In this document: positions 13,356-44,706 of the stretch, piece after piece | Numbering within the stretch: position 1 is the first letter of the stretch | Layout of the letters: each line of letters begins with the position of its first letter | DNA from: a virus | Taxonomy: Duplodnaviria; Heunggongvirae; Uroviricota; Caudoviricetes | Direction: 5' to 3' (one strand) | IMG/VR virus record: IMGVR_UViG_3300029702_000002 | Length of the DNA: 64,000 bases | Made by a program: the position numbers and the translations under genes | Notes under the pieces: generated by a model | Database searches by the model: none | What the model saw: the letters and a program-made list of their open reading frames with translations, nothing else | What the model was told of the DNA's origin: nothing

Positions 13356-13410
13356 CCTGCTTCCGTATATATTTAATAAGTTACTTATTATTTATATATA
13401 CAGAAGCAGG
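13356..13410. repeat. 55-bp AT-rich near-palindrome, copy 1 (identical to 44652-44706)
   Basis: CCTGCTTCCGTATATATTTAATAAGTTACTTATTATTTATATATACAGAAGCAGG read in both places. Confidence 0.9.
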
Positions 13411-13521
13411 CATAACTTGTCGTCTTAGACGCCCAGAAGCTCTACACTTTGAGCCTGTTAAATTGATTAAAAACTTATGTGTAAAATAGAACGCATTAGT
13501 CAGTAGCAAAGAGATGCAATA

Positions 13522-14289
13522 ATGGACGATTTATCGGTATACGCGAGATCATTGGATAAGGCTAAATACTATGTTTACTGTCTCTATGATACAGAAGACA
13601 AGATGAAAAGACCGTTTTACATAGGAAAAGGCAAATCGACTCGTTGTCTCGATCACATCAAGTATCCCGATGACTCTCCCAAATCCATGCGGATCAAAGA
13701 ACTTTTGGCTAATAAAAAATTAGGCATAGATATACTTCGTCATGGTATGGATGAAACCACAGCCAAACTTGTTGAGGCGACATGCATCGACCTTATGGGG
13801 GTCGGAGAGCTTACGAATAAGGTACGAGGAAGTGGTTCCATGATGGGCAGAATATCACTGGACGCCTACCATCACTTAGTGCTGCAAGAGGAAACTGAAA
13901 TTGCTCCTGAGCACGCCGGTCTTGCCTTCCTGCTAAACAGCACCTACAAGTCAGGAATGTCCGCTCTGGCATTATATGAAGCTACGCGTGGCGTATGGGC
14001 AAAGGTTCCAAGAGACGAGAATCTCAAATATGCCTACGCTACATATGGTGGGCTGATAATGGAAGTTTATCAGATTGAATGCTGGGTCAAAGCCGGTTCT
14101 CAGCAGTACTTTACAAGGGATATAGCTCTTGGCCCCGACACAAAACGTTATGAATTTGTTGGCAGAATAGCCGATGAGCATATTAGAAAACTGTATGTAG
14201 GCAAATTAATCAAGAAGCCACCAAGCTACGGTAGCCCTTTTGTGAAGGTTGGGGTGGTTAGGACTGAACATAGTGTTAGCGCGGCATAA
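13522..14289 (+). CDS. GIY-YIG nuclease domain protein (free-standing, 255 aa)
   Basis: N-terminal YYVYCLYD...PFYIGKGKSTRCLDH matches GIY-YIG catalytic motif; lone plus-strand gene in minus-strand region. Confidence 0.7.
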   Translation: MDDLSVYARSLDKAKYYVYCLYDTEDKMKRPFYIGKGKSTRCLDHIKYPDDSPKSMRIKELLANKKLGIDILRHGMDETTAKLVEATCIDLMGVGELTNKVRGSGSMMGRISLDAYHHLVLQEETEIAPEHAGLAFLLNSTYKSGMSALALYEATRGVWAKVPRDENLKYAYATYGGLIMEVYQIECWVKAGSQQYFTRDIALGPDTKRYEFVGRIADEHIRKLYVGKLIKKPPSYGSPFVKVGVVRTEHSVSAA

Positions 14290-14341
14290 AGCTGACACTG
14301 TAGTTATGCATTGGCGCAATGTACGCGCCAATGCATGATTT

Positions 14342-14701
14342 TTAACCTTTCTTCATCAACTCTCGTTTGATTTCATCGGTACGCATCGTGACATCGGCAG
14401 CGGTGATCGCCTCATTCAATTTCACGATGTCCTCGATTTCCTGCGGTGACTTCTCTGCCAGATGGAAAATGGCTGCTCGAATCACGTCAGAACGAGTGAA
14501 CTTCTCGAAGCGAGGGATGAACTTCATCATCTCCAGCAGTTCGAAGTATTCGTCCTCCAGTGACATTGTGCGGCTTTTAATTTTCTCTTTGCCACGAGTC
14601 GGGCGTCCCTGTGGTCTGACTGGTTGGCGCAAAGGAGTTGTGTTCTTAGCCGGTGCATCAGGCTCTTTGCGCTTTGCTAGGTCACCCATTTTCATGGACA
14701 T
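14342..14701 (-). CDS. ParG-like small partition protein (basic N-terminal tail, putative ribbon-helix-helix C-terminus)
   Basis: 119-aa ORF translationally coupled (ATGA) to ParA-like gene. Confidence 0.5.
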   Translation of the reverse strand: MSMKMGDLAKRKEPDAPAKNTTPLRQPVRPQGRPTRGKEKIKSRTMSLEDEYFELLEMMKFIPRFEKFTRSDVIRAAIFHLAEKSPQEIEDIVKLNEAITAADVTMRTDEIKRELMKKG

Positions 14702-15369
14702 TATTCTTCTTCCTCCAGACTCAACAGATAATCTACAAATTCTTCAAACTCGGCTTCCGCCTTTTTGTCGCGCTCGCTACCGGTCATTTCAAAGATAGAA
14801 CGACCAGACTCTTCCGCATCATCATAGACGTTGCGGTTATATAGATTGACTGGCGCAGACTCGATTCCAAACGTCTCAACAATCTCTTTAGCCGCCAGAA
14901 TGCGAGACACTTGTGATGGCAAAGCCGGGCACTGGTTCATGACCGCGCGGACCTTCACTTTATCGTTTACATTGCGAACATTGTCGATAATAGGATCGAT
15001 GTCACGTAAAGATTTCAAATCACGACGCTTAGGACGCAGCGGGATAATGATAACGTCAGCCATCAGCATCGCTTGTCGCTGAATTTCGGAGTCGAAGCCA
15101 CCAGCATCTACCACTACAAACTCAGCTCTACCCTGAAGCGATTTTAGGTGCTTAATGATGTCATCCTGAACGTATGCAAAAGGAATCAGCTCCAGGTCTT
15201 CGTTCTGTCGACGGTCTTCACACCAGCTCGTTGTCGTGCGCTGAATATCTATATCGGTAATATAAACCTTCTTCTTCTTTTTGACTTTCAGGCAAACGGC
15301 AATTTGCTGGGCAACGGTGGATTTGCCAGGCCCGCCCTTTGTGCCGCCAACCACAAAGATCTTGGTCAT
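14701..15369 (-). CDS. ParA/MinD-family partition ATPase
   Basis: Deviant Walker A KIFVVGGTKGGPGKST at N-terminus, 222 aa. Confidence 0.85.
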   Translation of the reverse strand: MTKIFVVGGTKGGPGKSTVAQQIAVCLKVKKKKKVYITDIDIQRTTTSWCEDRRQNEDLELIPFAYVQDDIIKHLKSLQGRAEFVVVDAGGFDSEIQRQAMLMADVIIIPLRPKRRDLKSLRDIDPIIDNVRNVNDKVKVRAVMNQCPALPSQVSRILAAKEIVETFGIESAPVNLYNRNVYDDAEESGRSIFEMTGSERDKKAEAEFEEFVDYLLSLEEEE

Positions 15370-15687
15370 TGGAGAGTTCCCTTTGCGTATATAATTATCG
15401 TCTGAAACAACTTGTTTTCTTATATGTGATATAGCCTAAATGCCTACGGCTGCGGTGTAAAGGTTAAATGGTAGGTTGTGATTAACAATTGGCAAACATA
15501 GCTTGTATTTGTCTGTTGAAAAAAGTAACAATGACCTCTATATTACAAGTACGGTGATATGCCGTACACAATTTGATAATGCACACGTAATGGGCTATAG
15601 CCTTTTAAAGTAATTTTTGAGTCGAAAACTCAGTTTGAACAGAGGAGATTGATGGCCTTCCTACATCACGGCCATCAGGAGGAATAC

Positions 15688-15957
15688 ATGTCAGCACTAA
15701 AAAAGCAGCGCATCGATTTGAGATTAACCGATGACGATAAAAGCATCATCGAGGAAGCTGCCGCAATGTCTAACCAGAGCATTACTCAGTTTATGGTTAG
15801 CAGTGCATCTGAACGTGCCGTGAAAGTTATAGAGCAACACCGTAGACTAGTTCTGAATGAAGAATCCTGGAATCTGGTTATGGACGCTATAAGCAATCCT
15901 CCGGCACCGAACGACAAGCTGAAACGAGCTGCTGATCGTCTGAAAAGCATGGAGTAG
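15688..15957 (+). CDS. DUF1778/TacA-like antitoxin
   Basis: Small ORF immediately upstream of GNAT toxin; ATG 15688 preceded by CAGGAGGAA. Confidence 0.7.
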   Translation: MSALKKQRIDLRLTDDDKSIIEEAAAMSNQSITQFMVSSASERAVKVIEQHRRLVLNEESWNLVMDAISNPPAPNDKLKRAADRLKSME

Positions 15958-15964
15958 TTTACTC

Positions 15965-16486
15965 GTGGATAATATAAAGATAGAAATTTTCTCTGGAGAG
16001 AAAGATTATGATTTGAATGGTTTTGATTGCGGTGAAGAATCACTAAATGCCTTTTTAACCAACCACTTAAAAAGGCAGCATGAGGGAAAAATTCTTCGCG
16101 CTTATGTGCTTTGCACGAAAGAAGGCAGACCAAAAGTGTTAGGGTATTACACTTTGTCAGGTAGCTGCTTTGAAAAGGAGTCCTTACCTTCAAGAAGCCA
16201 GCAAAAGAAGGTACCTTATCGGAATGTTCCAAGTGTTACTTTGGGTAGGCTGGCTTTGGACAAGTCCCTTCAAGGTCAAGGATTTGGCTCAATGCTTGTA
16301 ACACATGCAATGCGCGTTGTGTACAATGCATCTCTTGCTGTAGGCATTCATGGACTTTTCGTTGAGGCGTTAAATGACAAAGCCAAGGCGTTTTATAAAA
16401 GTTTAGACTTTATCCAGCTGGTTGGTAACAACGAGCGTTCTTTGTTCTATCCTACAAAATCTATCGAAAAATTGTTCGAAGAATAA
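15965..16486 (+). CDS. GNAT acetyltransferase toxin (TacT/AtaT-like)
   Basis: 173-aa GNAT fold with LQGQGFGSMLV acetyl-CoA motif, 8 nt after antitoxin stop; GTG start. Confidence 0.75.
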   Translation: MDNIKIEIFSGEKDYDLNGFDCGEESLNAFLTNHLKRQHEGKILRAYVLCTKEGRPKVLGYYTLSGSCFEKESLPSRSQQKKVPYRNVPSVTLGRLALDKSLQGQGFGSMLVTHAMRVVYNASLAVGIHGLFVEALNDKAKAFYKSLDFIQLVGNNERSLFYPTKSIEKLFEE

Positions 16487-16517
16487 TGTACTCCCCTCAA
16501 GTGAGGGGAACTTCGCA

Positions 16518-16733
16518 TCACCAACCGCAAACTCTCTCTCCCATCGTATTGTGAAAAAGGATTTGGCGTTCGGTTTCTTCGGTCATCACATCATTATTGC
16601 TGATATAGATAGGCCCAGCTCCATCGCAGAACAATACGCTGGCGGTTTGTGGTTTAATGACGCACCCACTTATCATACAACTCACGATGAACGGCAGAAG
16701 CATCTTTCTGACGTATTTTATTGCTCGTCTCAT
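16518..16733 (-). CDS. Outer-membrane spanin (Rz1-like lipoprotein), overlapping i-spanin
   Basis: Signal peptide with lipobox ISGC; ORF overlaps 3' end of 16654-16905 in another frame. Confidence 0.5.
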   Translation of the reverse strand: MRRAIKYVRKMLLPFIVSCMISGCVIKPQTASVLFCDGAGPIYISNNDVMTEETERQILFHNTMGERVCGW

Positions 16734-16905
16734 TCACCACTTCCACTGTGCTTTGAAGTCGTTTTCTGTCTTCCTGTTTTGCCTTCTCTTCCATTGCTCG
16801 TCGCGCCGCATTCCCGCCCATCGTGTAAGCGCCGACAAGAACGAAAAGAACGGCAGCCAGCGTAATCAAAGCAACTTTTAGCTTTGTCATCAGGCTGCCT
16901 AGCAT
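16654..16905 (-). CDS. Inner-membrane spanin (Rz-like)
   Basis: N-terminal transmembrane segment then charged coiled-coil-like region; directly downstream of endolysin. Confidence 0.5.
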   Translation of the reverse strand: MLGSLMTKLKVALITLAAVLFVLVGAYTMGGNAARRAMEEKAKQEDRKRLQSTVEVVNETSNKIRQKDASAVHRELYDKWVRH

Positions 16906-16906
16906 A

Positions 16907-17626
16907 TTAGACCATCCCTTTCTGGTATTTTCTTACCTGCGACCAGGCAATGAATCCTGCCACAACAATAGTGGCAATACCGAAGATGATGCGTACTGTA
17001 TCCCCGCTAGAGATATGACCTTGTGCTTTATCCATAGCAGCGGAAACCTGCGGCATAACATCGGCCAGCTGCGCCAGACCAATACCTGCTGTAACAGTTG
17101 CGCCTGCAGTTTCTTTAGTTACAGGAACAGCCTTCACGGTTTTCACCGGCTTAACAACGCCAGCTCGACGCAGACCTTCCTCAATAACTTCTGCCGCATA
17201 CCAGGTGTTCAGCGTTTTTAGCGGGCCTCGGCCATTCTCGTGGCGAATGATTGCCTCAACCAAAGGTCGAAGGATGTCGTAATCATGCAGATCGATGATC
17301 ATGTCTGCGGTTACACCAACGGCTTTAGACACCTCATTAATGTAGGCGTCAGTATTGTTTTCATTCGGCGGTGCCCAGCGTTCAATAACTTCACGAATGG
17401 TATCGATACTTGTGCCGTCTTTTGCGCGACGTTTATCGTGGTAGGTAATTAGAGTCACCGCCAGCGCACGAATCCCCCAAACAGGGTCTTTAAACGTGCA
17501 AAAGCGCGGTTCGTCTGGATTCGCAACCAGACCTTGCCACGGTGATCCTTTATCAAGATTACCGGGGTTATTATTACGAATGCCTCTCGGAGTCTTCATC
17601 CTTGATCTCCTGTTATTGCAGTCCAC
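16907..17626 (-). CDS. Putative endolysin/peptidoglycan hydrolase with C-terminal hydrophobic segment
   Basis: GIRNNNPGNL motif-containing domain, position between holin-like and spanin genes; C-terminal VRIIFGIATIVVAGFIAW hydrophobic stretch. Confidence 0.55.
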   Translation of the reverse strand: MDCNNRRSRMKTPRGIRNNNPGNLDKGSPWQGLVANPDEPRFCTFKDPVWGIRALAVTLITYHDKRRAKDGTSIDTIREVIERWAPPNENNTDAYINEVSKAVGVTADMIIDLHDYDILRPLVEAIIRHENGRGPLKTLNTWYAAEVIEEGLRRAGVVKPVKTVKAVPVTKETAGATVTAGIGLAQLADVMPQVSAAMDKAQGHISSGDTVRIIFGIATIVVAGFIAWSQVRKYQKGMV

Positions 17627-17948
17627 TTTTTACGCCATACGCGGCTAACCCCAAAAGCAGTGCGGTAATAATGAACGACGTTATTTTAGAAACAATGCCG
17701 CCAAAGAACCCACTTGAGATGGAATCTAACCGGTTAAGGAGTTTGTCCAGATTGGAGTGTTGAATACTATGTTGCGCCGGGGTCATATCACCAAAGTAGG
17801 TTTTCAGCTGATCATTGACCTCCTGGCCAATTTCTTCACGTAGCTCTTTACCTAATTTGCCAACAACCTCCCGAGCAACGATCGCGGCAATACGCTCAAC
17901 TTGCTCTGTTGTAACGCCCGCCATCTCGTTCGACATGTTTTCCTCCAT
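17613..17948 (-). CDS. Holin-like membrane protein (single C-terminal TM)
   Basis: Position upstream of endolysin; C-terminal ITSFIITALLLGLAAYGV segment. Confidence 0.4.
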   Translation of the reverse strand: MEENMSNEMAGVTTEQVERIAAIVAREVVGKLGKELREEIGQEVNDQLKTYFGDMTPAQHSIQHSNLDKLLNRLDSISSGFFGGIVSKITSFIITALLLGLAAYGVKSGLQ

Positions 17949-18138
17949 GAAAAGTCAAATCGGGATGGCGGATTTATATCACACTTCTCCTTTCAATTAT
18001 AGGTATATACTTACCTATCTATGCATATGCCGTTTAACGGCTGTTCAAATTCGTATCTAGTAACTCACTAATATATCCCTATGATTGCGGCTGTGAGATC
18101 GCATTTTAAACCTCACAGCCATATAAATAATGTCTAAA

Positions 18139-21100
18139 TCAGTTACTTGTTGCCCCAACAGTACCTGCAAATTTCAGCCATTGACCTGACGGACTTCTAT
18201 TACTACGGTAGTGATAAACGAGGATTGCGTTTGTAACTCCACCGTAGTCAGCTTTATGTGACGTTGTTAAACGAATTGTATAATCACCGTTAGGTAGATT
18301 AAAAACTTCGATTATAGATTCTGCTAATTCTACAGCACCAAATCCCGTTATATTGTTGATACTGCCAGCATTGAATCCCATAGCATCGCCAAAGCCAATC
18401 CAATAACTTTTGCTAAACGCCCCATTTGATTTTAGGTGGCTAATGAATGCGGACAAGCTCATGCCCATATCCCCACCTGAAACAGAGGAAGTTCGCACAG
18501 TCATGCTTGGAAGAGCACTGCTCTTCACATAGGAACTTAGAAGGTTTGTTACCTCTGTTTTCGTGTAAGCATTAAGGTTAGCCGCAGTCAAAGTTATATC
18601 GGCAGAGCCATCAAACGCCACACCAGCAATTTTCCTTGCTGTCTGCAATTTTGTGGCGGTTGCGGCATTACCAGTAGTGTTCTGATTACCAGTTGTATTC
18701 ACACCAGGGATTGAATCCTTAGCGGTATATACCTGCGCCCACGCTGACCATGCCGCACCTGTGTTATCTCTTCGTGAGCGAATGAAAACTGGCGCATGTG
18801 CACCGCTCGTACCACTCCAGCCAATAAGCAACTCTCCCTCACCAGCAGCACTCGCACCTTTCATGTGCAATACGTTGCCATACATGGTCGGGTAGCTATT
18901 GTTGTACGCCTCATACATTTGAATGCCAGCAGTGCCTTGAGTAGAGCCGCTTAACGCCGTAACTCGGCCACGAGATACCAATGTATTAATATTGATATCG
19001 CCTGAACCATCAAACTTAACACCATTGATGTTTCTCGCTGTTTGCAACTTCGTAGCTGTTGAAGCATTACCGTTCAAACTACCATTTACGCCACCAGTCA
19101 CATTTAGTCCATTACCAATTGATACAGCACCGCTGGTATTATTAATTGTAATAGGTCGCAAACCGTTCCATGAACCTAATGTGTCTCCTGATGCTGTTAG
19201 CATGAAATATGTGTTCGATCCATCATTACGGATAAAGAACCCAAAGCTACCGTAAGCAATGCGGAAACCATTTGCATATTTTGAAATGATCTCGCCAGAA
19301 GATGTCAAACCTCCAGATAATGTACCACCGGTAAGAGGTAATGCACCGACATCAGAGGCTGTTGGTTTGTTTTTCGTGTTATATACTCTTCGCCATCCTG
19401 GAGAATAATCTGTGCCATTAAATACATAGATAAACTCCGCATTAGTGAGAGCACCGGAAACACTTGTCGTTGTGGCCGTTGTTATGCGGATCGTATAATT
19501 ATTTGAACTACTACCGTTATTAAATACTTCTATAACAGCTCCTGCCAATGGAATAACGCCACAACCAGTTTCACTATTTGGTATGGTTGCGCTATTGGCA
19601 TAGGCCCACGCACATCGAGCAATCCATGCCTTTGTGTTAAAGGCTCCATTATTTTGCAATAACGTCACTAACTGGGCTGTTGTTATTGCTCCGCCATTAC
19701 TTCCTGTAGTTAACCAACCAGTAGGAGATGCTGGGCAACCTATATTTGCTGGTGACAAGGAAATATTTGCCGAACCGTCAAACGACACCCCATTAATAGT
19801 ACGCGCAGTCTGCAACTTCGTAGCAGTAGCCGCATTACCTGTTGTATTCTGATTACCAGTCGTATTAACACCTGGCAAATTAATATTTGCAGTACCATCA
19901 AAGCTCACGCCGCCGATAGTTCTTGCCGTCTGTAGTTTTGTAGCAGTTGCGGCATTACCAGTGGTGTTCTGATTACCCGTAGTGTTTACACCTGGAAGAT
20001 TAATATTGGCAGAACCGTCGAAACCAACTCCACCGATAGATCTTGCCGTCTGTAATTTCGTTGCTGTAGCAGCATTTCCTGAAAGACTTGAAATAAATGG
20101 ATGTGAACAGTAATAACCTCGTCCATTTTTAAAGTCCAAAATTATCTGTGCATTCGTACTTTCTGATAAAGGATCAGTTGCCCCCCACTTATAAGTGGTT
20201 TGACCAACTGCATAATCAGCCGTTGGAACAATCACATTTAATCCTTCCTCAGCAAAAATCTGGATAGGGAATGCTCTTGTCTCAACGTAAAATACACTAC
20301 ACAAATCATCATCTTTCACGCTTGCGATAATCGAGTGTATAGATCGTTCAACGGTTGAATATATTGAGAAAAAACCAACAGCATATGAACCGCGATCAGA
20401 CCAACCGCCCGGCATAACAAAACCATTAAACTCACAATTATTCATAGCGTATCCGCCAGCTGAGGAATAAGTGGTGATAACCACTCGTGAGGCTAATTCA
20501 TCTGTGCCACCACCAGTTCGGCGAAAGACTACAGGATACCACTTACCGCTTACTGCATTTGCAGGAGCAGAGAAAGTGTATTTTCGCATCCCCTTTTTCT
20601 TATCCACTTCACCTTTGCTGTAAACATTAATGTTATTCAGGAAGCGGCCCTTGTCGGGGATATCAGCACCATTCTGATCCTTCTGTAGTCTTTTTTCAGC
20701 ATTATCATATGCGGCCTTAACTGCTTTTGGCGTTGCGGCCAGCGATTCACTGGTGCTATCGACAGCACTGCTAAGTTTCACAACACCTTTAGTTGTAAGG
20801 CTTGCGTCTTCCATCGCAACTGCACCGGCAATCTCTTCAGCACGATCAGCAGCAGCTTCCGCACGGGTCGCAGCGGATTCAGCAGCAGTTTTGCTCTGAG
20901 ATGCTGCCGTCGCACTGCCTGCCGCCTCTGTTGCTTTCGTGGATGCTGTCGTGGCGCTGCCCTTCGCTGCGGACGCTTGTCTGGTCGCCTCATCTTTTGA
21001 AGCAGACGCCGATGATGCCGATGACGCTGCCGAACTGGCGGACGATGCGGCTGCCGTTTTTGAGGATTCTGCACGGGTTTCCGACGCTTTCGCGTTCGTT

Positions 21101-22176: not shown

Positions 22177-22269
22177 GTTGAATATGCTCCTTGATTTGGC
22201 GGGTTATCCTTGCCCGCCATTAAGTAAATACTTACCTATTTTTACCGATATAAAATTTTTTTTCCACCA

Positions 22270-36039: not shown

Positions 36040-36040
36040 A

Positions 36041-36514: not shown

Positions 36515-36849
36515 ATATTCGCCCCTACTTCAAGATGCCCAGGTCTTCCTCGTAGCCCCCAGCGGCGATGAACACTGGACACCTTTAATTTTTGACCTTC
36601 AAGGATCAGTACATCATCAAGTTGTACAGCCGCTTCTAAAGGGACAACTAACACAGCATCAAACAGCTCCAGACTCGCCTTACCACGACTACCAGAGCTA
36701 TCAGCACGAACTGACGATTTCTCATTACTCTGTTCGAACTTAACCACGCCGACATTCGTCTTCCTGACGAATTGTAATTGCGCCTCACCGTAAACGTTCT
36801 TTGCGCCAAAGCGGTAGATCGCAATTTCTGTTTGCCATGAAATATTCAT
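36505..36849 (-). CDS. Head-tail adaptor-like protein (hypothetical)
   Basis: Start placed at internal ATG with GGGAGAGAGC site; longer ORF to 36945 also possible. Confidence 0.45.
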   Translation of the reverse strand: MNISWQTEIAIYRFGAKNVYGEAQLQFVRKTNVGVVKFEQSNEKSSVRADSSGSRGKASLELFDAVLVVPLEAAVQLDDVLILEGQKLKVSSVHRRWGLRGRPGHLEVGANIWV

Positions 36850-36928
36850 GCTCTCTCCCTGTTGTTGTCGGTCGCTCTCATTACTGGCCAAAAAACCTTT
36901 CGACCAAAAGTAAATAATGCGACTGGCG

Positions 36929-37762: not shown

Positions 37763-38196
37763 TACTCACCGCCTTGTGCTTTCAGGATGCCGTCAATCAT
37801 TTCGACAATTCCTTTCGCTTTGACACCAACCTGATTACCAATAACTCGTAGACCGGCAATACCTTCGTTGTCTGCAATTGACTCCAGCTCTTCTCGTGTG
37901 AAAGTCTGGATCTGTTTGGCCGGTTCATCTGGTGTCCCACGTTTCATTGGCACAATGTCAGGCGCTGCTGGCTCGGTAATCAGGTCTGCTGTCAATTCAC
38001 CACGATCACTGTATGCGGCAGACGGAGAAACATTTTTGCCCTCTACTGTTGACGCTCGCATTGAAGCACAAATCCTTTGCTGATCGATAAAAGGCAACTC
38101 CGCTACGGACACCCCGTTCTCGAACTGAACGCCGCACAACATTCCCGAATAACCGGAAAATTGCGGTTCTAATAAAACAATTTTTGCTGGTTTCAT
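37762..38196 (-). CDS. Hypothetical structural protein (144 aa)
   Basis: ORF in structural operon, ATGA overlap with next gene. Confidence 0.5.
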   Translation of the reverse strand: MKPAKIVLLEPQFSGYSGMLCGVQFENGVSVAELPFIDQQRICASMRASTVEGKNVSPSAAYSDRGELTADLITEPAAPDIVPMKRGTPDEPAKQIQTFTREELESIADNEGIAGLRVIGNQVGVKAKGIVEMIDGILKAQGGE

Positions 38197-38240
38197 AACG
38201 CATTCTCTCTACATGGGCGGCTTTCGCCGCCCAATATTGA

Positions 38241-39161
38241 TTATTCCTGTGCAGCAGTGACTTCTACGGTCGCTGTCGCTTTGTGGCTACCATCTTGGGT
38301 AGTAACCTCGATTGTGGCAGTACCAGCCGCAACACCAGTTACAACACCGGTTTCGCTGTCAACCGTTGCAAACTCGGTATTTTTAGATTCCCAAGTAACG
38401 GTTTTATTTGTGGCTCCTGCCGGCTCGACATTTGCTGTCAGCTGAACAGTTTTGTTTGCCTCAACGGTTGTGCTATTTGGGTCGATTTCGACGCCGGTAA
38501 CAGCCACAACAGGCGCAGTTACTTCCACCGTTGCAGTTGCCTTTTTGCTACCATCTTGGGAAACGATCTCAATCGTCGCAGTGCCAACTTCTACACCAGT
38601 TACGTTCCCGCTCTGGTCTACCGTTGCCTTATCTTCATTTTTGGAAGACCAGGTAACAGCCTTATTCGTCGCATTTGACGGCTGAACATTCGCTTTCAGA
38701 CTGACTGATTTTCCTTTCTCAACAGAGGTTGAGTCTGGCGTTACCGTTACGGATTGAACGGCTACCGGATTTACGGTGACTTCCACTGAAGCGGAAAGCT
38801 GGGTTTCCTGATCAGTTGCAGTAATTTTTACTTTACCTGGGGCTACGCCAGTTACTAATCCAGTGCCGTTAACGGTTGCAATTTGGTCATTGGCTGACTT
38901 CCAGGTGAATGAACTGGCACTCTTACCCATACTAATACCTGCACTAAGTTGAACAGTTTTCCCAACCAAAACTGACGGTGAAGCCGGGGTTATGTTTACG
39001 GATTGGGAGAGGGGAACCGCCTGCAAACAAGCAGATAGCTGACTTTGTTGCCGCTCGGTTAAAGGTTCATCGGAGATAGAATTGGTAAATCCGGCACGGC
39101 ACATATGCCCCGTAAAATCCGAAAATGCCTCTTCCGTAATCTTCATCTTTTGTTCTGGCAT
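38241..39161 (-). CDS. Ig-like (Big_2) repeat protein, probable capsid decoration protein
   Basis: Three tandem Big_2-like repeats (VTVTP..T.V..GK.V.L.A.V.P..ATNK.VTW.S.N...ATVD..G.VTGV..GTATI). Confidence 0.7.
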   Translation of the reverse strand: MPEQKMKITEEAFSDFTGHMCRAGFTNSISDEPLTERQQSQLSACLQAVPLSQSVNITPASPSVLVGKTVQLSAGISMGKSASSFTWKSANDQIATVNGTGLVTGVAPGKVKITATDQETQLSASVEVTVNPVAVQSVTVTPDSTSVEKGKSVSLKANVQPSNATNKAVTWSSKNEDKATVDQSGNVTGVEVGTATIEIVSQDGSKKATATVEVTAPVVAVTGVEIDPNSTTVEANKTVQLTANVEPAGATNKTVTWESKNTEFATVDSETGVVTGVAAGTATIEVTTQDGSHKATATVEVTAAQE

Positions 39162-39234
39162 TTCTCGCTCCTACAAAAAGGGTGGGCGTATAGCCCACCC
39201 TTTAACATAGATAACTACTTATCTACTACACTGA

Positions 39235-40110
39235 TTAAATTTTTACATTGGTCAGTGCAGCGATAGCCTTATCGTGCTTATTCGCCAGAGAGCAGTACCA
39301 CTTCACACGGGTACGTACTGCGTCTTTGTTCTGTACAGTACCAATGTTTTCAACAACGATACCTGCGTTGTCGCCGCCATACAGACCAGTAACGCCGTTC
39401 TCTTCTGACAGATGCAGGCAGTAGATGCTTGCTTTGCCAGAATCGGTCGGGATGAAGTCGTTGATGATGAACGGAACGCCGTTATGACACAGCATCGGAC
39501 GACCGAAGTTCTCCATCATGATTTCAGACGGACCTACGTTTACTGTACGCAGCAGCGCACGGTAAGCACGCAGGTGCTCTGAACGCATCATGATGCAGTC
39601 AGCACCAAGATCTTTCACCGCATCGACCAGTTCGTCGAACATAGAGAAAGTCATAGATGCACCGGCGATATCGATCTTCTGATCTGCGTGCATCAGGCGT
39701 GGAATGCCGTCAAACGCCTTGTTGTTGGAGCTGGAGTCACCCAAAATCAGGTTGCGACGGAACGCACGAGCCAGACCTTTAACTTTCTGACGAACCTGAA
39801 TAGCCAACTGGTTGTTGGTGTCGGCCATAGTGGTCGCCAGGAATTTATCAACGTCTACGTCACCAGCCAGAATACGCAGTTTCGCAACGCATTCTTCGAA
39901 GGTTGCTGCACCTTCAGGGATGGTGTCGTTAACGTCGATGAAGGTAGCTTCACTCAGCGTTTTTTCACGGTTGTACAGATATGCCTTTGAATTAATTTTC
40001 ATAAAAGGCAGGATGGCAAACAGGTCATCGCGATCGATGATAGTTTCGATCACACCCTGTTCAAGTTCGTTGTTAGACAGCTTTTCAGCTTCTTCACGCA
40101 GTAATGGCAT
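39235..40110 (-). CDS. Major capsid protein
   Basis: 291-aa ORF after scaffold-like gene and before decoration protein; strong codon bias. Confidence 0.75.
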   Translation of the reverse strand: MPLLREEAEKLSNNELEQGVIETIIDRDDLFAILPFMKINSKAYLYNREKTLSEATFIDVNDTIPEGAATFEECVAKLRILAGDVDVDKFLATTMADTNNQLAIQVRQKVKGLARAFRRNLILGDSSSNNKAFDGIPRLMHADQKIDIAGASMTFSMFDELVDAVKDLGADCIMMRSEHLRAYRALLRTVNVGPSEIMMENFGRPMLCHNGVPFIINDFIPTDSGKASIYCLHLSEENGVTGLYGGDNAGIVVENIGTVQNKDAVRTRVKWYCSLANKHDKAIAALTNVKI

Positions 40111-40135
40111 CTATCAATTCCCTTTGATTTAGATG

Positions 40136-41023
40136 TTACTTAAGTCCAATTTTCCCCAGACCGGAGGCCAACTTATCCATAGTCGACTTGTTCTTCGGTT
40201 GGGATATTGTGTAGGTCGATTTGGAATGTGAGCCTACACCCTGCTTGGCTTCGCTACGCATCAATGCGTCAGCTTCCGGATCTGCCCGCACAATGCGTTC
40301 AATCGCGGATTCAAACGGCAACGGCTTACCTTCACCGTCAACCAGAACAGCTCGTTCTTTATGACCTGCCGGTTTGTCATAACCCACTACGCTACCGTCT
40401 TCACCCACTTCAAAATGAGAACCGTAGATCACGCGGGCTTTTGCCGGGGTCATCAGAACTTTGTCACGTAGGAAGAGAGAGTTACTGAAGGAAGCGCCCA
40501 CGGTCATCTCGACTAATTGAGATTTCAGTGATGCGTTTTCACTTTCCAGTGCTGCATAACGTTCGTCACGCTGTGCCAGCTCTGCCTGGTGTGCTTCGAT
40601 CATCTGTTTTTTAACAGCATCGAACTCACCACGACGCTCCAGTTCAGCTTGCTCCGCCTCACGACGTGCGTTTTCTGCGGCCTGTTCAGCTTCTAAAAGC
40701 TGGCGAGCACGAGCCGGATCGATATCACCGTACTGAGCAAGCTGATCGGCCAATGTGCGCTCTTTCTCTTTGCGCTTCATGTTCTCCTTCAGCAGTTCAG
40801 CACCAGCTTTCTTGGTTTTACGAAGTTCGGCCAGTAACTCTTCCTGAGTCATGCCAGCGTATTCGTCATCGCCCTTCGGCTGCTCTTTTTGTTCACCCTG
40901 TTTGTCAGGATCTTGTGTACTCTGCTCATTATCAGCAGCTACACCGCCAGCGCCTCCACGCTCATGCGCTTCAGCGACATCCATCAGACCACGACGGGCC
41001 AAAAGCATTTGCCACAGATTCAT
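40136..41023 (-). CDS. Scaffolding protein
   Basis: Charged, E/Q/A-rich coiled-coil-type 295-aa ORF between portal and capsid genes. Confidence 0.6.
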   Translation of the reverse strand: MNLWQMLLARRGLMDVAEAHERGGAGGVAADNEQSTQDPDKQGEQKEQPKGDDEYAGMTQEELLAELRKTKKAGAELLKENMKRKEKERTLADQLAQYGDIDPARARQLLEAEQAAENARREAEQAELERRGEFDAVKKQMIEAHQAELAQRDERYAALESENASLKSQLVEMTVGASFSNSLFLRDKVLMTPAKARVIYGSHFEVGEDGSVVGYDKPAGHKERAVLVDGEGKPLPFESAIERIVRADPEADALMRSEAKQGVGSHSKSTYTISQPKNKSTMDKLASGLGKIGLK

Positions 41024-41044
41024 AAAAATTCCTTTTGTTACTTA

Positions 41045-42619
41045 TCACTCGTTCTCTTGAGTAGATGAGTCCCCATTCCCTCGGGGTTGATCTTGCCCGC
41101 TTTCTTGGGCTGCACCACGATCATAAGTAAGTACTGACTTATTTTCAAGGGTATTTAGATCATTTTTTGGAGGAAAATTCAAGAGATCTTTATCAAATTC
41201 CTTTTTCATCGCCTCAGTAATGTTCGGGAAAATCTTCTCAATAAGCATTTCCATCTGGTGACGACGTACAGAGTCCGGTGCCTGAAGTAATGACAGTTTC
41301 TCGGCAACAGAAAATTCATCAGTAAGGCCACGAATATCGAAACTTTCTGGATACGCAATTAAAGAGTGGTCTTCGTCCAGATCTACCCCCATCCATTTCG
41401 CAACCAGTAGCATGATTTGGCGTTCAGCCCTTTCCAGACGCTCTGCTTTTGTGACAAGCAAGCTATTTACACGCTGGAAGTCATACATTTTTGCGGCACC
41501 AGATGAATTATCGATTCCCTGTGCGTTGTCCTGCTTCGTTCGCTCACCAGCTACACCAACTGAATGGTAGATTTCGTTAATCACCGTCTTAATCGTAGTG
41601 ATGATCATCTGAGCTTGTTTCGGGTCTGGTGACAGATAAAACGGCTGGTTTCCACCTTCAGAATCGTAGGTGAAGACTCGCTTTGTGCCCATTTCAAGCA
41701 CTTTAGTGTGGTTTTCATCACCAGGTAAAAGCGACTGTACCGGTATAGCCAACTGGCTAAATGTCTGATCCTGAATAATGGCATCAAGGTTTGACAGATA
41801 GTTTGCAACCGCACGATCAAGATAAGCGATATCATCGATCAACGATGGGCTGAAATACGGTGATTCACTTTCTCCAATACAATCAACAGGAAACACAGGA
41901 ACTACGCCGAGATTATGCTCACCGCTATCCTCTAAAATAACTTTTGCCTGACGGCGACCTGCTCCACCAGCGCCCTTCTTCACTTCCTCACGGAACAGAT
42001 ACCACTCGTTTTGTGTCCACAGACGATAACGTTGGTATTCCTGACCTGTAGAAGTAAAAGGATCTGCGTCATCACGAGCGACTTCCACAATTAACGCCCA
42101 CAACATATTCCCGTCGTCGTCCCATGCCACATCCAGCATTTGCTGAGGTGAAATCCAGTAGGCGTAGGCGCGAGCATCTTTCTTTTTCTCGTCAGCTACT
42201 GACTCAACATCACCACTCATCGTGCTATCGACAACAACCCATATGCGACCGTAAATAGACGACTGCAAATCAATAGCGGCCATAAATGAGTCAATAGAGG
42301 CATTCTGGCGAGTCGCACGTTTCCAGAAATTGCGGATCTGCTCTGGTGCCTCTTCGATATTTCTATGAATGTCTTCTTTAAAGAGATATTTGTTGATGAG
42401 GTTTACCACCTCACGAGTGTGGTTGAAGCGATAAGCACGCTCAACTCGCTCCTTAAACTCCTGATCTCCCTCTTTAAAGTAACGAAAGATATTGTCTGTA
42501 AACCAACCACGCCCGCCAGCGTAAGTGCTGGCGAGGAAGTCCCAATGTTCTTTTTTCTTTTCGTATTCCGGGTGGCGTCGCGCCACCAGATCCTTAATTT
42601 GTTTGTCGTTCAATTCCAT
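41045..42619 (-). CDS. Portal protein
   Basis: 524-aa ORF directly after large terminase. Confidence 0.8.
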   Translation of the reverse strand: MELNDKQIKDLVARRHPEYEKKKEHWDFLASTYAGGRGWFTDNIFRYFKEGDQEFKERVERAYRFNHTREVVNLINKYLFKEDIHRNIEEAPEQIRNFWKRATRQNASIDSFMAAIDLQSSIYGRIWVVVDSTMSGDVESVADEKKKDARAYAYWISPQQMLDVAWDDDGNMLWALIVEVARDDADPFTSTGQEYQRYRLWTQNEWYLFREEVKKGAGGAGRRQAKVILEDSGEHNLGVVPVFPVDCIGESESPYFSPSLIDDIAYLDRAVANYLSNLDAIIQDQTFSQLAIPVQSLLPGDENHTKVLEMGTKRVFTYDSEGGNQPFYLSPDPKQAQMIITTIKTVINEIYHSVGVAGERTKQDNAQGIDNSSGAAKMYDFQRVNSLLVTKAERLERAERQIMLLVAKWMGVDLDEDHSLIAYPESFDIRGLTDEFSVAEKLSLLQAPDSVRRHQMEMLIEKIFPNITEAMKKEFDKDLLNFPPKNDLNTLENKSVLTYDRGAAQESGQDQPRGNGDSSTQENE

Positions 42620-42645
42620 TTGAATAACCTTAGATAATTACTTAC

Positions 42646-43902
42646 CTATCGAGAACCACCAAGAATAACACGGTTTTTGACTGGATACCTACGATGTACT
42701 GGATAGCCCAATGCGTCTGCACTATGCTCAATGCCACCTGTCTTATCCATATCTCGTGTTCCAGGCTTGTAGATGACTTTTTCCAGTGAATCAATCAAAT
42801 GCTTGCACTTCGGATCGATATACAACCGGATATCTCCAGATGCGGTCATCAGCATTCGGTTAACAGCATTAACACGATCCGCAATTGGCGGGTGCTTTTT
42901 CGAATAATCGACACGTAAGAATCCCTTCTCTTTGAATATGTCGACGTCAGACTCCCCGCGAGCATGTTGGCGATAAGCACCTGCCGGATCTGGAAATACC
43001 GTTATCTGTGATTTCCAGCGCCAGAAGCGTCTCTCAAGCTCATCACAAACCTCTGCCGTGTTAGAGGAAAAGAGCACCAATTCATCAATTGCCCATAGCT
43101 CACCATTTGGCTGAGGTTGCAAAATTACTGAAGACATCGGGTCAATGTTGAAGTCCTGCCCTACCCATATAGGCAACCGAGGGTTGAACTGAAGCGGTTT
43201 TACATGCACGTTACGATCGAACGGGTAGTAAACGCGCCCGGACATGTTCTCAAAGCTCGCCAGGTACTCCTGAGCGAACGATTTCGGGTCCATATCGTTC
43301 TTAGCAGCTTCAATTTCCGCCGTAGGCACAAACGGAGAATCGGCAGTTACAAACTGCCAGCTCTTCCACTGTCCCTTTCTTTGCAGCTCTACGTTCTGGC
43401 CTATAGTCCACAGTTTGTGAAATTCCGAGAAACCTTTTGGCGTACCAATGATCAGTGCACCGCCGCGTGTCGATGAAAGAGTAGGTCGTAACACCTTGTA
43501 CCAGGTGTCAGCCTTCATATCCTGAAATTCATCAAGCACTACAAAATGCAACGCTACGCCGCGCAGAGTGTCAGGCTTATCAGCACCTTTGAGGGCGATC
43601 TCCGAACCGTTCTTCAACACGATTGTCATCGTGGTGTCGTTCTTTTTCCTAACCCACTTACGAGGCAGAACTTCCTGTAGATCGTCCCACAAAATCTGGC
43701 GAGCCATCTGGTAAGTAGGAGCGACATACCAGACCCTTTGCTTTTTTTCCTTTGCCGCCGCACGAATAATAGTGGAGATCGACAACCGGGATTTTCCCCA
43801 GCGTCGACCAGCACAAACAACTTTAAATCGATGCGGAGACTGGAAGACTTTCATCTGTCCAGAATGCAGTTGCACAAGACTGAGCGAGGACGGGATTGCC
43901 AT
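42646..43902 (-). CDS. Terminase large subunit
   Basis: N-terminal Walker A VVCAGRRWGKS, ATPase + nuclease two-domain size, overlaps terS stop. Confidence 0.9.
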   Translation of the reverse strand: MAIPSSLSLVQLHSGQMKVFQSPHRFKVVCAGRRWGKSRLSISTIIRAAAKEKKQRVWYVAPTYQMARQILWDDLQEVLPRKWVRKKNDTTMTIVLKNGSEIALKGADKPDTLRGVALHFVVLDEFQDMKADTWYKVLRPTLSSTRGGALIIGTPKGFSEFHKLWTIGQNVELQRKGQWKSWQFVTADSPFVPTAEIEAAKNDMDPKSFAQEYLASFENMSGRVYYPFDRNVHVKPLQFNPRLPIWVGQDFNIDPMSSVILQPQPNGELWAIDELVLFSSNTAEVCDELERRFWRWKSQITVFPDPAGAYRQHARGESDVDIFKEKGFLRVDYSKKHPPIADRVNAVNRMLMTASGDIRLYIDPKCKHLIDSLEKVIYKPGTRDMDKTGGIEHSADALGYPVHRRYPVKNRVILGGSR

Positions 43903-44534
43903 TATTCGTCCTCCCCTTCACTTCCATCATCTGTCGCATCAAATTCGCTTAGAGCTTCTTCTTCCAACGTCTCAAGCAATTCGTCATCGATGATTTCAGG
44001 CTCGTCGTCTTCCTGACGTAATTTCGCCACCTGGGAAGGCGTAAGCTCACCAAATACCAGGTTCGGAATTTCTTCCTCGTCATTTTCCGCATGATCCATG
44101 CCCAATGCTTTGGACGAAACTTCAAAGCATTTTGCAAGGGTATTACTGGCTCTCTGTAAGCTCTTGAGAGAATCCTCAATCGCCCCTAAAGGCTTACCCT
44201 CACGTTTGGCCGTAGTGACTTCGACCATCACCATCTGCCCCAACGCATACGCCCAGCCGTCATAACGTGTACGACGTTCTTCTATCTTTTCCGCACGGGC
44301 TTTAGCGCGAAGCTCTGCGTCAGATTTAAGAGACTCACGAACCATCTTCCCAACAGAGTCCGCGCCTTTCTCTAATCCTCGCTTTTTGAAATGTCTGGAG
44401 AGTGTTTCACGACGAATGCCGTACTCTTCCTCCAGCTTTGAGAGTGTATATTCGCCTGACGTCCATTTGGCTTCAGCTTCGGCCCACTCCGCTGGTGTCA
44501 GGCGAGTTTTTACCTCGTCTTTTTCGACCGTCAT
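43902..44534 (-). CDS. Terminase small subunit
   Basis: N-terminal HTH-like region, acidic C-terminal tail, immediately upstream of terL. Confidence 0.7.
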   Translation of the reverse strand: MTVEKDEVKTRLTPAEWAEAEAKWTSGEYTLSKLEEEYGIRRETLSRHFKKRGLEKGADSVGKMVRESLKSDAELRAKARAEKIEERRTRYDGWAYALGQMVMVEVTTAKREGKPLGAIEDSLKSLQRASNTLAKCFEVSSKALGMDHAENDEEEIPNLVFGELTPSQVAKLRQEDDEPEIIDDELLETLEEEALSEFDATDDGSEGEDE

Positions 44535-44651
44535 AGATCCCTCTAAAACACACAGAGCGCGTCCATGCGCTCTAAAACAACTTGTTTACTGCATTTTCTA
44601 ACCAACTTGTTTTCTGGGTTGTTTAATTAGGTCTGGGCATGTCTTATTAAG

Positions 44652-44706
44652 CCTGCTTCCGTATATATTTAATAAGTTACTTATTATTTATATATACAGA
44701 AGCAGG
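44652..44706. repeat. 55-bp AT-rich near-palindrome, copy 2 (identical to 13356-13410), about 120 bp upstream of terS
   Basis: Exact 55/55 identity to copy 1. Confidence 0.9.

What the first reader, a model, noticed from the sequence alone, without database searches (positions are those of the whole stretch)
13356..44706. Two identical 55-bp AT-rich palindromes 31 kb apart
Identical 55-bp near-palindromes at 13356-13410 and 44652-44706 lie in promoter regions of leftward operons, one about 120 bp upstream of terS and one between the divergent 12499-13248 gene and the GIY-YIG nuclease gene. Perfect conservation of a long cruciform-capable element at two distant sites implies selection or recent recombination. 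Candidates are a packaging or regulatory site, a late-activator binding site, or a homing-endonuclease target (only copy 1 has the nuclease gene next to it).
Basis: partly seen in the sequence, partly recalled or inferred. Interest (0 to 1): 0.6.

Follow-up and report, generated by a model that had tools for sequence, protein, structure and literature searches.

The report
Repeated terminator-like hairpin in a phage-plasmid
The two identical 55-bp palindromes are real, belong to a three-copy intergenic hairpin element found in nearly all SSU5-like phage-plasmids, and most likely act as transcription stop signals that insulate operons, not as a packaging site or a nuclease target.

Summary
Observation confirmed. 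The repeat is exact and 55 bp long at 13356-13410 and 44652-44706, and identity stops at both edges.

The window is an E. coli SSU5-like phage-plasmid. A near-identical complete relative carries a third copy outside the window.

In loci found through neighbouring genes, the element fills three fixed slots:
- A, about 110 bp upstream of p249, the 249-aa ORF at 12499-13248, which precedes the helicase and primase genes (78/80 loci).
- B, 28 bp after the 88-aa gene and about 118 bp upstream of terS (77/80).
- C, after dam (68/80).

Each copy is the core of a roughly 100-nt compound hairpin. In a Moellerella plasmid and two IMG/VR contigs, both the inner arms and the outer stem have different but still complementary sequences, which indicates a paired structure.

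On the transcribed strand, A and C are followed by a U-tract. Published RNA-seq of the relative Cyrano/pLF82 shows a fall from about 55 to about 6, the detection floor, across site A.

Best reading, about 0.5: terminator/insulator hairpins, homogenised within genomes or recognised by a factor.

The GIY-YIG gene is one of several alternative cargo genes beside A (25/80 loci). Contig ends in plasmid-state assemblies also fall inside these palindromes, so the SSU5 record end is weak evidence for a cos site.

Interest is low to moderate.

The parts
13356..13410 (-). Site A core hairpin (55 bp). The sense strand is the - strand.
   Evidence: Exact repeat. Syntenic slot about 108 bp upstream of p249 (12499-13248), present in 78/80 loci found through p249. 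Folds at -27.7 kcal/mol on the - strand.
13344..13355 (-). U-rich tract immediately 3' of hairpin A on the - strand (UCUUUUAAAAGA).
   Evidence: Sequence. Across 46 distinct site-A sequences the mean is 5.24 T in the 8 nt after the stem on the sense strand, against 3.67 on the other side.
13333..13438 (-). Extended compound hairpin A. Outer stems UUCUGG/CCAGAA and GUCU/AGAC enclose the core.
   Evidence: RNA fold -40.2 kcal/mol, z = -7.7.
44652..44706 (-). Site B core hairpin (55 bp).
   Evidence: Exact repeat. Slot 27-30 bp after p88 and 116-118 bp before terS, present in 77/80 loci found through p88.
44630..44728 (-). Extended compound hairpin B. The outer stem GGUCUGGG/CCCAGACC plus CUUAUU/AAUAAG encloses the core.
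   Evidence: RNA fold -50.6 kcal/mol on the - strand against -44.7 on the + strand, z = -11.4. The CCAGAC box is at least 90% conserved at all three sites.
12499..13248 (-). p249 (phrog_2500, function unknown). First gene downstream of site A, followed by DnaB-like helicase (11115-12455) and primase (9852-11105).
   Evidence: Its Cyrano orthologue CYRAN_31 is at the detection floor in lysogens.
13522..14289 (+). LEM-3-like GIY-YIG gene. It is a neighbour in the variable cargo slot and not part of the element.
   Evidence: Pfam PF22945. Present beside A in 25/80 relatives. Other relatives carry DUF2971 or other genes there.
44731..44997 (-). p88, an 88-aa protein (phrog_900, function unknown). 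Last gene upstream of site B.
   Evidence: annotated in Cyrano as DNA-binding-domain protein.
43902..44534 (-). terS (phrog_867). First gene downstream of site B.
44575..44615 (-). Two copies of the AAACAAnTTGTTT leader/operator motif lie between hairpin B and terS. A -10-like TAATTA upstream of them lies next to the outer stem. Together these suggest that terS has its own promoter.

Best explanation
The 55-bp palindromes are the cores of a roughly 100-nt compound hairpin element. SSU5-like phage-plasmids keep this element at three fixed intergenic junctions of leftward operons.

- Site A lies between the partition/cargo genes and the p249-helicase-primase operon.
- Site B lies between the ParB-like/ABC/p88 operon and terS and the morphogenesis genes.
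- Site C, outside the window, lies between dam and the next operon.

Transcribed from the - strand, the GC-rich stem base CCUGCUUC/GAAGCAGG followed by a U-tract acts as an intrinsic terminator or mRNA 3'-end signal. This keeps constitutive plasmid-state transcription, such as that of the par operon, out of the lytic operons.

Shown: the structure, its conserved position, compensatory evolution, the U-tract at A and C, and a sharp expression boundary at A in one relative.

Inferred: that the boundary is termination at the hairpin, and that B and C work the same way.

The exact A = B identity in this window reflects homogenisation of the copies within a genome. This could come from gene conversion or from shared recognition by a factor.
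For: 1. Position. All 141 classified pattern hits fall in three syntenic slots at near-constant distances. Loci chosen only by the neighbouring gene carry the element in 78/80 (A), 77/80 (B) and 68/80 (C) cases.

2. Paired structure.
- The main family has arms CCTGCTTCYGTATA/TATACRGAAGCAGG with outer stem GGTCTGGG/CCCAGACC.
- Moellerella pW1-b has CCTAGCTCCCATA/TATGGGAGCTAGG with outer CCGCAG/CTGCGG.
- L384 has CCTTGCTCCCATA/TATGGGAGCAAGG with CCGCAGTGT/ACACTGCGG.
- L385 has yet another complementary pair.
- Stepwise changes C-G > U.G > U-A are seen within the family.
- The arms stay paired although the centre varies from 49-59 nt to about 80-115 nt overall.

3. Terminator hallmarks on the sense strand. 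The stem base is GC-rich and abuts UCUUUU at A (5.24 T in 8 nt) and CUUUUU at C (4.54 T in 8 nt).

4. Expression data from LF82/Cyrano RNA-seq (PMC9928086, S1 Table).
- parA reads 49.8, the parG-like gene 89.1 and CYRAN_30 54.6. After palindrome A, 25 nt beyond the CYRAN_30 stop, CYRAN_31 reads 6.2.
- In other conditions log2 values are 8.6-10.4 upstream against 2.3-4.2 downstream, where the floor is 2.32.
- The hairpin is the only strong structure in that 193-bp gap.

5. Functional replacement.
- In a divergent Klebsiella lineage, site C keeps only one arm and carries a canonical GC hairpin plus T-run terminator next to it.
- In Moellerella, two of the three half-elements are preceded by canonical terminators.

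6. The element is not a host repeat. In complete E. coli genomes 1042 of 1044 places are on plasmids.
Against: - Site B, including the window's own copy, has no proper U-tract (CUUAAUAAG; mean 2.97 T in 8 nt).
- No strand is uniformly better paired. The core dG for sense against antisense is -22.6/-18.1 at A, -24.5/-22.7 at B and -19.9/-23.1 at C. An RNA-only constraint is therefore not demonstrated.
- The G.U excess at A could also come from strand-biased C>T mutation.
- Terminators normally need neither an outer stem nor a sequence shared among sites. Here the arm sequence is lineage-specific and shared by the sites of one genome, and the centres can differ. Moellerella carries three perfect single left halves without a partner. 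This hints at sequence-specific recognition.
- The consensus terminator scan does not call the sites, because its model allows only simple stems.
- The RNA-seq evidence comes from one relative, whose site-A centre differs from the window's. It gives per-gene values and not mapped 3' ends. Sites B and C are uninformative there because both flanks are silent.
Confidence: 0.5

Rival explanations
1. The arms are a recognition site for a lineage-specific trans-acting factor. Candidates are an activator, repressor, antiterminator or structure-specific DNA/RNA-binding protein. The factor would coordinately control three lytic operons (replication, packaging, and the operon after dam). Under this reading the hairpin would be a regulated switch, not a passive stop.
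For: - The arm sequence is invariant across genera while the flanks diverge by about 25%.
- The arm sequence changes between lineages but is shared by the sites within each genome, even where the centres differ.
- Moellerella has three further perfect left halves (CCTAGCTCCCATA plus an AT-rich tail) in sense orientation, 100-146 nt upstream of genes.
- The downstream CCAGAC box is retained at site A even where cargo exchange removed its pairing partner.
Against: - The distance between the arms varies, from 49-59 nt to about 115 nt, with (TA)n length polymorphism. One dimer on B-form DNA cannot contact both arms in register.
- No half-sites occur in the window or in CP053388.1.
- No candidate factor was identified.
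- Gene conversion could explain the within-genome homogeneity.
Confidence: 0.2
2. The full compound hairpin is an RNase III processing or retroregulation signal in read-through transcripts, like phage lambda sib/tI or the T7 R sites. It would set mRNA 3' ends and stability and would not terminate transcription.
For: - The core has 23-25 bp with a bulge, and the outer stem can form only after read-through.
- The outer stem co-varies between lineages.
- Site B lacks a U-tract.
- Only generic long-hairpin (miRNA-precursor) models give weak Rfam hits. This fits a long dsRNA-like hairpin with no known family.
Against: There are no cleavage data. The U-tract at A and C is not needed for RNase III. 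This model overlaps with the best explanation and does not exclude it.
Confidence: 0.1
3. The element is a selfish or neutral repeated palindrome, either a MITE-like relic or a recombination hot spot. It would be maintained by gene conversion, with no function for the phage-plasmid.
For: - The copies evolve in concert.
- Homology between relatives breaks exactly at the edge of palindrome A, which marks the boundary of a cargo-exchange slot.
- Assemblies break inside the palindromes.
Against: - The element is fixed at the same three syntenic slots in E. coli, Salmonella, Klebsiella, Yersinia, Kluyvera, Buttiauxella and Moellerella, with compensatory changes.
- There is no insertion polymorphism and no target-site duplication.
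- It is essentially absent from host chromosomes.
Confidence: 0.07
4. The elements are DNA-level hairpin or cruciform sites for replication. They would be lytic origins or helicase/primase-loading sites for the phage-encoded DnaB-like helicase and primase.
For: The centre is AT-rich and flanked by GC-rich arms. Site A lies next to the replication operon. The three sites are spaced 30-45 kb apart around the circle.
Against: GC skew bears no relation to the sites. Genes on both sides are co-oriented. No initiator was identified. This model does not explain the U-tract or the expression step.
Confidence: 0.05
5. Copy B is the cos/pac site cut by terminase.
For: Copy B lies 118 bp upstream of terS. 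The SSU5 GenBank record starts and ends inside copy B.
Against: - There are three copies with the same arms per genome.
- The joined SSU5 ends give the intact 55-mer, with nothing missing or duplicated.
- Cyrano's ends were copied from SSU5.
- Contigs from bacterial-isolate assemblies, including a 108,630-bp contig, also end inside palindromes A and B. The break is therefore a recurrent assembly artefact.
- One PhageTerm result for Nican01, a Nickievirus phage whose TerS is a distant homologue (about 32% identity), calls 'DTR (long)' and not cos. The Nickievirus phage examined (nickie) lacks the palindrome.
Confidence: 0.04
6. The palindrome is the target of the neighbouring GIY-YIG homing endonuclease.
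For: A GIY-YIG gene lies 112 bp from copy A in this window. The homology break falls at the palindrome edge.
Against: The palindrome is present in 78/80 relatives and the gene in 25/80. The same palindrome variants occur with and without the gene. Sites B and C never have the gene. Several unrelated alternative genes occupy the slot.
Confidence: 0.02

Closest known systems
Rho-independent (intrinsic) transcription terminators
   Same: A GC-rich stem base is followed directly by a U-tract on the sense strand at sites A and C. The element sits 15-30 nt after a stop codon. A sharp drop in expression is seen across site A in Cyrano.
   Different: The hairpin is unusually long (about 24 bp, AT-rich upper stem) and sits inside a second, outer helix. 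The sequence is conserved and shared by three sites. Site B lacks a good U-tract.
Phage lambda sib/tI retroregulator (own knowledge)
   Same: A terminator hairpin is embedded in a longer dyad. The longer dyad can form completely only in read-through transcripts and would then be an RNase III substrate.
   Different: There is no evidence here of RNase III cleavage or of antitermination. There are three copies and not one.
Phage T7 RNase III processing sites (R0.3-R18.5; own knowledge)
   Same: Several intergenic hairpins per genome have upper and lower stems and a shared sequence, and they punctuate long operons.
   Different: T7 sites do not terminate transcription and carry a characteristic internal loop. 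Cleavage was not tested here.
Dispersed palindromic centromere sites of phage-plasmid N15 (sopC-like IR1-IR4; own knowledge)
   Same: Both are in a phage-plasmid and have several copies of one palindrome scattered among phage genes, near regulatory regions.
   Different: N15 sites are short (about 16 bp) with fixed-register half-sites bound by SopB. Here the arm spacing is variable and no binding protein is known.
Enterobacterial repeated palindromes (REP/BIME, ERIC) and Neisseria Correia elements (own knowledge)
   Same: These are intergenic, transcribed, imperfect palindromes of about 100 nt that can terminate or stabilise mRNA.
   Different: Those elements are dispersed in host chromosomes in many copies with insertion polymorphism. 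This element is confined to one mobile-element family, at three fixed syntenic slots.

Membership tests
Intrinsic terminator | Stable stem-loop with a GC-rich base on the transcribed strand | tested here: met
   The core folds at -27.7 kcal/mol on the - strand. Stem base is CCUGCUUC/GAAGCAGG.
Intrinsic terminator | U-tract immediately 3' of the stem | tested here: inconclusive
   Met at A (UCUUUU; mean 5.24 T in 8 nt) and at C (4.54). Not met at B (window CUUAAUAAG; mean 2.97).
Intrinsic terminator | Lies at the end of a transcription unit, and transcript level drops across it | tested here: met
   Tested for site A only, in the relative Cyrano. Values fall from 54.6 to 6.2, and log2 from 8.6-10.4 to 2.3-4.2. 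No data bear on B or C, and no 3' ends were mapped.
cos/pac packaging site | Single site per genome next to the terminase genes | tested here: not met
   Three copies share the same arms, and only B is next to terS.
cos/pac packaging site | Virion DNA termini map to the site | not testable with these tools
   The SSU5 record ends lie inside B. Contigs of plasmid-state assemblies break in the same palindromes.
Homing-endonuclease target | The site co-varies with presence or absence of the adjacent nuclease gene | tested here: not met
   The palindrome is present in 78/80 loci and GIY-YIG in 25/80. The same variants occur with and without the gene.
RNase III site (T7 R-site or lambda sib type) | Irregular dsRNA hairpin of at least about 20 bp in an mRNA | tested here: met
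   The core has 23-25 bp and there is an outer stem.
RNase III site (T7 R-site or lambda sib type) | Cleavage by RNase III | not testable with these tools
   No data.
MITE/REP/ERIC-like repeat | Many dispersed copies in host genomes, with insertion polymorphism | tested here: not met
   1042 of 1044 places are on plasmids, in 260 of 5426 E. coli genomes. Every classified copy lies in one of three syntenic slots. The chromosomal hit and one 141-kb-plasmid hit that were inspected are phage-plasmid fragments flanked by IS elements.
Dispersed partition centromere (N15 type) | Half-sites at fixed spacing, bound by the partition protein | tested here: inconclusive
   Arm spacing varies, from 49-59 nt up to about 115 nt, which argues against this family. 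Binding cannot be tested.
Protelomerase target (telRL) | Single palindrome in a linear plasmid prophage with hairpin ends | tested here: not met
   Relatives are deposited as circular plasmids and carry three copies.
Rfam RNA families | Match at the gathering score | tested here: not met
   Only two tRNAs pass in the window. The element gives sub-threshold miRNA-precursor hits only.

The most novel reading that the evidence does not exclude
The hairpin arms are a lineage-specific recognition code read by a co-evolving trans-acting factor, either a protein or a processed RNA. The factor would switch all three boundaries at once on induction. The replication, packaging and third lytic operons would then be unlocked by regulated read-through at one shared, sequence-defined terminator cassette. 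Evidence that is compatible with this reading but does not require it:
- The arm sequence is shared by the sites within a genome and differs between lineages.
- The outer box is conserved.
- Moellerella carries perfect single half-elements upstream of genes.
Probability: 0.15. Interest if true: 0.6.

Novelty: new member of a known kind. Interest (0 to 1): 0.3.

Why it matters
SSU5-like phage-plasmids include pHCM2 of S. Typhi, pMT1 of Y. pestis, pLF82/Cyrano, and many Klebsiella and E. coli plasmids. They are common in clinical Enterobacterales, and almost nothing is known about how they keep lytic genes silent in the plasmid state.

A conserved three-copy boundary element gives a concrete and easily mutated handle on that question. 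It also marks the edge of a cargo-exchange hot spot next to site A.

In practice, the element explains recurrent contig breaks in assemblies of these plasmids. It also warns against reading the SSU5 record ends as physical termini.

If the element is only a terminator, the finding is useful annotation and not a surprise.

Tried and rejected
- Packaging site. I followed the SSU5 and Cyrano record ends. Cyrano was merely re-oriented to SSU5, and isolate-genome contigs break in the same palindromes.
- TerL typing gives Terminase_6N/Terminase_3, nearest to P74-26 TerL. This does not decide the packaging mode.
- The SSU5 genome announcement could not be read.
- Nickievirus as an ancient homologue of site B. 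Its inverted repeat turned out to be two copies of the AAACAAnTTGTTT-type motif and not the 55-bp element, and it is single-copy.
- Homing-endonuclease target: rejected on the presence/absence counts.
- Host MITE: rejected.
- Replication origin: GC skew is uninformative.
- T4-type late promoter. TATAAATA sits in the sense half of the palindrome, but the window has only 6 copies, so there is no general usage.
- Sigma-70 promoter or simple terminator consensus at the sites: none called.
- Strand asymmetry as proof of an RNA-level constraint: it holds at A and B and is reversed at C.
- RNAalifold on a mixed alignment recovered only the lower stem, because (TA)n indels disturb the alignment.
- A 14-mer scan for the divergent arm returned only random hits and wasted one scan.
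- Literature searches for the palindrome, its arm sequence, or SSU5 termini found nothing.

Full report
**1. Observation**

The sequence CCTGCTTCCGTATATATTTAATAAGTTACTTATTATTTATATATACAGAAGCAGG occurs at 13356-13410 and 44652-44706 on the + strand. No match appeared in 100 shuffles. The identity is exactly 55 bp, and the first base outside differs on each side.

The sequence is a near-palindrome. The 17-nt arms carry one C.A mismatch on the + strand, which is U.G on the - strand. The centre is AT-rich. It folds to a 23-24 bp hairpin, at -22.2 kcal/mol on the + strand and -27.7 on the - strand.

The + strand neighbour at 13522-14289 does carry a LEM-3-like GIY-YIG domain.

**2. What the window is**

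The window is an E. coli SSU5-like phage-plasmid.
- It is about 99% identical to CP053388.1 and PhiR41_1.
- It is close to Cyrano (pLF82).
- It is about 80% identical to Salmonella phage SSU5.
- 832 plasmids of Klebsiella, Escherichia, Enterobacter, Yersinia (pMT1), Salmonella (pHCM2-like), Citrobacter and others match the site-B region.

**3. Copy number and position**

The complete relative CP053388.1 has three copies. Two correspond to the window's copies. The third lies at 91622-91676, between dam and an 84-aa gene, with the same arms and a different centre. It falls beyond the window's right end.

A pattern scan of public collections returned 7 loci from reference genomes and more than 120 from IMG/VR. 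All 141 hits that could be classified lie in three syntenic slots:
- A: 104-120 bp upstream of p249, the 249-aa ORF at 12499-13248 (phrog_2500), followed by DnaB-like helicase and primase.
- B: 27-30 bp after p88 and 116-118 bp before terS.
- C: 27-31 bp after dam and 84-107 bp before p84.

That scan fixed the arm sequence in advance. I therefore repeated the survey with loci chosen only through the neighbouring protein. The element was then present in 78/80 (A), 77/80 (B) and 68/80 (C) loci.

In complete E. coli genomes, 1042 of 1044 places are on plasmids, in 260 of 5426 genomes. The single chromosomal hit and one of the hits on an unrelated large plasmid, both inspected, are fragments of such phage-plasmids flanked by IS elements. 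The element is therefore specific to this mobile-element family and is not a host repeat.

**4. Anatomy**

In sense orientation (the - strand of the window) each copy reads as follows:
- an outer box, (G)GTCTGGGAG;
- about 10 nt of spacer;
- the left arm CCTGCTTCYGTATA;
- a (TA)n run, then AT-rich sequence with an inner TAAGT-N-ACTTA dyad;
- the right arm TATACRGAAGCAGG;
- 12-30 nt of spacer;
- the partner box CTCCCAGAC(C).

The whole stretch of roughly 100 nt folds as one compound hairpin. Site B gives -50.6 kcal/mol (z = -11.4) and site A gives -40.2 (z = -7.7) on the - strand.

Core length varies from 49 to 59 nt, mostly through (TA)n slippage. No Rfam family matches.

**5. Evidence that pairing is under selection**

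Within the family there are stepwise compensatory series:
- L8-r7: C-G, then U.G, then U-A.
- L5-r10: C-G, then U.G, then U-A.
- L6-r9: T-A to G-C.
- The pair just outside the arms: A-U to G-C.

Some changes are uncompensated, for example L6 G or A at site B.

The comparison with deeper lineages is more telling.
- Moellerella pW1-b has arms CCTAGCTCCCATA/TATGGGAGCTAGG at A and C and a degenerate version at B. Its outer stem is CCGCAG/CTGCGG, and its centres are about 50-90 nt.
- The IMG/VR contig L384 has CCTTGCTCCCATA/TATGGGAGCAAGG with outer stem CCGCAGTGT/ACACTGCGG.
- L385 has GCCGTGTTCCCATA/TATCGGAGCACGGC.

Both helices have changed sequence while staying complementary. The arms remain partners whatever the length of the centre. 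This indicates a hairpin (RNA, single-stranded DNA or cruciform) and argues against two half-sites read in register on B-form DNA.

**6. Evidence for a transcription boundary**

On the sense strand the stem is followed directly by UCUUUU(U/A) at A and by CUUUUU or CUGUUUU at C. The mean T count in the next 8 nt is 5.24 at A and 4.54 at C, against 3.67 and 2.97 on the opposite side. Site B has only 2.97.

Published RNA-seq of E. coli LF82 carrying Cyrano (PMC9928086, S1 Table) gives these values along one strand:

| Gene | Value |
|---|---|
| parA | 49.8 |
| parG-like | 89.1 |
| CYRAN_30 | 54.6 |
| palindrome A, 25 nt after the CYRAN_30 stop | |
| CYRAN_31 (p249) | 6.2 |
| helicase | 21.1 |
| primase | 10.6 |

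In eight other samples CYRAN_30 is at log2 8.6-10.4 and CYRAN_31 at 2.3-4.2, where 2.32 is the floor.

The hairpin, followed by UCUUUUAAAG, is the only strong structure in the 193-bp gap. The genes flanking B and C are silent on both sides in these data, so the data say nothing about those sites.

Two further observations suggest that a terminator is needed at these junctions.
- In a divergent Klebsiella lineage, site C has lost one arm and carries a textbook GC hairpin plus T-run beside the remnant.
- In Moellerella, two of the three solitary left halves are preceded by canonical terminators.

**7. What does not fit a plain terminator**

- Site B lacks a U-tract.
- The better-paired strand is the sense strand at A (41/46 distinct sequences). 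The result is mixed at B (23/38), and the antisense strand is better at C.
- An outer helix and a shared sequence are not needed for termination.
- Arm sequences are lineage-specific but shared by the copies of one genome. Lineage-specific substitutions in the centre are also shared by A and B, for example ACTTAGTATTT in SSU5-type elements against ACTTATTATTT in E. coli-type elements.
- In this window's lineage A equals B outright.
- Moellerella carries five perfect copies of the 13-nt left arm, and only two of them have partners.

Gene conversion among copies could explain this homogeneity. So could recognition by a co-evolving factor. I cannot separate the two, and I keep the factor model as the main rival and as the novel case.

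**8. Rejected readings**

*Homing-endonuclease target.* GIY-YIG lies beside A in 25/80 relatives and the palindrome is present in 78/80, with identical variants in both groups. The slot to the right of A (window 13411-14341) holds different genes in different relatives: GIY-YIG, CYRAN_30, DUF2971 and others. Homology to relatives ends exactly at the palindrome edge. The element is therefore the boundary of a cargo hot spot.

*cos/pac site.* The SSU5 record does start and end inside copy B. Several points weaken this hint.
- The joined ends give an intact 55-mer.
- Cyrano's ends were copied from SSU5.
- There are three copies per genome.
- Contigs from isolate assemblies end inside palindromes A or B. 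These include a 108,630-bp contig that is a whole plasmid.

*Other readings.* GC skew gives no hint of origins. TATAAATA inside the sense half is not a general promoter motif here.

**9. Verdict**

The identity reflects paralogy with homogenisation.

The most likely function is a terminator/insulator hairpin cassette at three operon junctions. It is supported directly at site A and by inference at B and C. Confidence is about 0.5. A further 0.3 is spread over related RNA-level or factor-dependent versions.

This is a new, family-specific member of a known kind of element. It has not been described in the literature I could search. Interest is low to moderate.

Noticed in passing
window 12475-12491, 15405-15421, 44575-44615 (two copies), 53715, 54200, 54925, 56337, 59134, 59185; at least 16 sites in CP053388.1: A 16-nt motif AGAAAACAAnTTGTTT (13-bp dyad AAACAAnTTGTTT) recurs 7-10 nt downstream of a -10-like ATAATA/TAATTA and about 20-30 nt upstream of start codons of many operons, including dnaB-like, parA and terS. 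It looks like a shared operator or 5'-leader of the phage-plasmid's promoters.
   Followed up: partly
window 50244-50846 (+): A 200-aa protein matches Pfam PF03614, 'Repressor of phase-1 flagellin' (FljA), at E = 4.8e-83. From my own knowledge, FljA is an mRNA-leader-binding post-transcriptional repressor in Salmonella. It is a candidate trans-factor for the leader motif above or for the hairpins.
   Followed up: no
window 13411-14341: The slot between palindrome A and the parG-like gene is a cargo hot spot. It holds GIY-YIG here, and CYRAN_30, DUF2971 or other genes in relatives. Homology breaks exactly at the palindrome edge.
   Followed up: yes
Moellerella wisconsensis pW1-b NZ_CP093257.1 (L509/L510): 12535, 38852, 64217: Three perfect solitary left halves of that lineage's element (CCTAGCTCCCATA plus an AT-rich tail) lie in sense orientation 100-146 nt upstream of genes, and two of them lie just after canonical terminators. 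A 13/13 match to the right arm also lies inside nrdA at 87728.
   Followed up: partly
IMG/VR contigs L150, L188, L240, L244: Assemblies of bacterial isolates repeatedly break inside palindromes A and B. One whole 108,630-bp plasmid contig is linearised at B. This is useful as a warning for assembly and for termini calls in this family.
   Followed up: yes
window 3733-3805 and 3811-3882 (-): Two adjacent tRNA genes (Rfam RF00005, 76.5 and 75.5 bits).
   Followed up: no
window 18578-20079 and 38254-38603: Diverged direct repeats of about 120 bp (five copies of a 77-nt core) and of 89 bp lie inside the region occupied by tail and head genes. They are probably repeated protein domains (D1, D2, D4).
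   Followed up: no
E. albertii plasmid NZ_CP126909.1 (L016 5002-5056): A 62-kb plasmid carries one copy of the palindrome between a RelE/ParE toxin-antitoxin pair and hypothetical genes. It also has metG, as Cyrano does, so it is probably a deletion derivative of an SSU5-like element.
   Followed up: no
window 44553-44574 (-): A small GC hairpin plus T-run (UAGAGCGCAUGGACGCGCUCUG UGUGUUUUAG) lies directly upstream of the terS ribosome-binding site, downstream of the leader motifs. It may be an attenuator-like feature of the terS leader.
   Followed up: no
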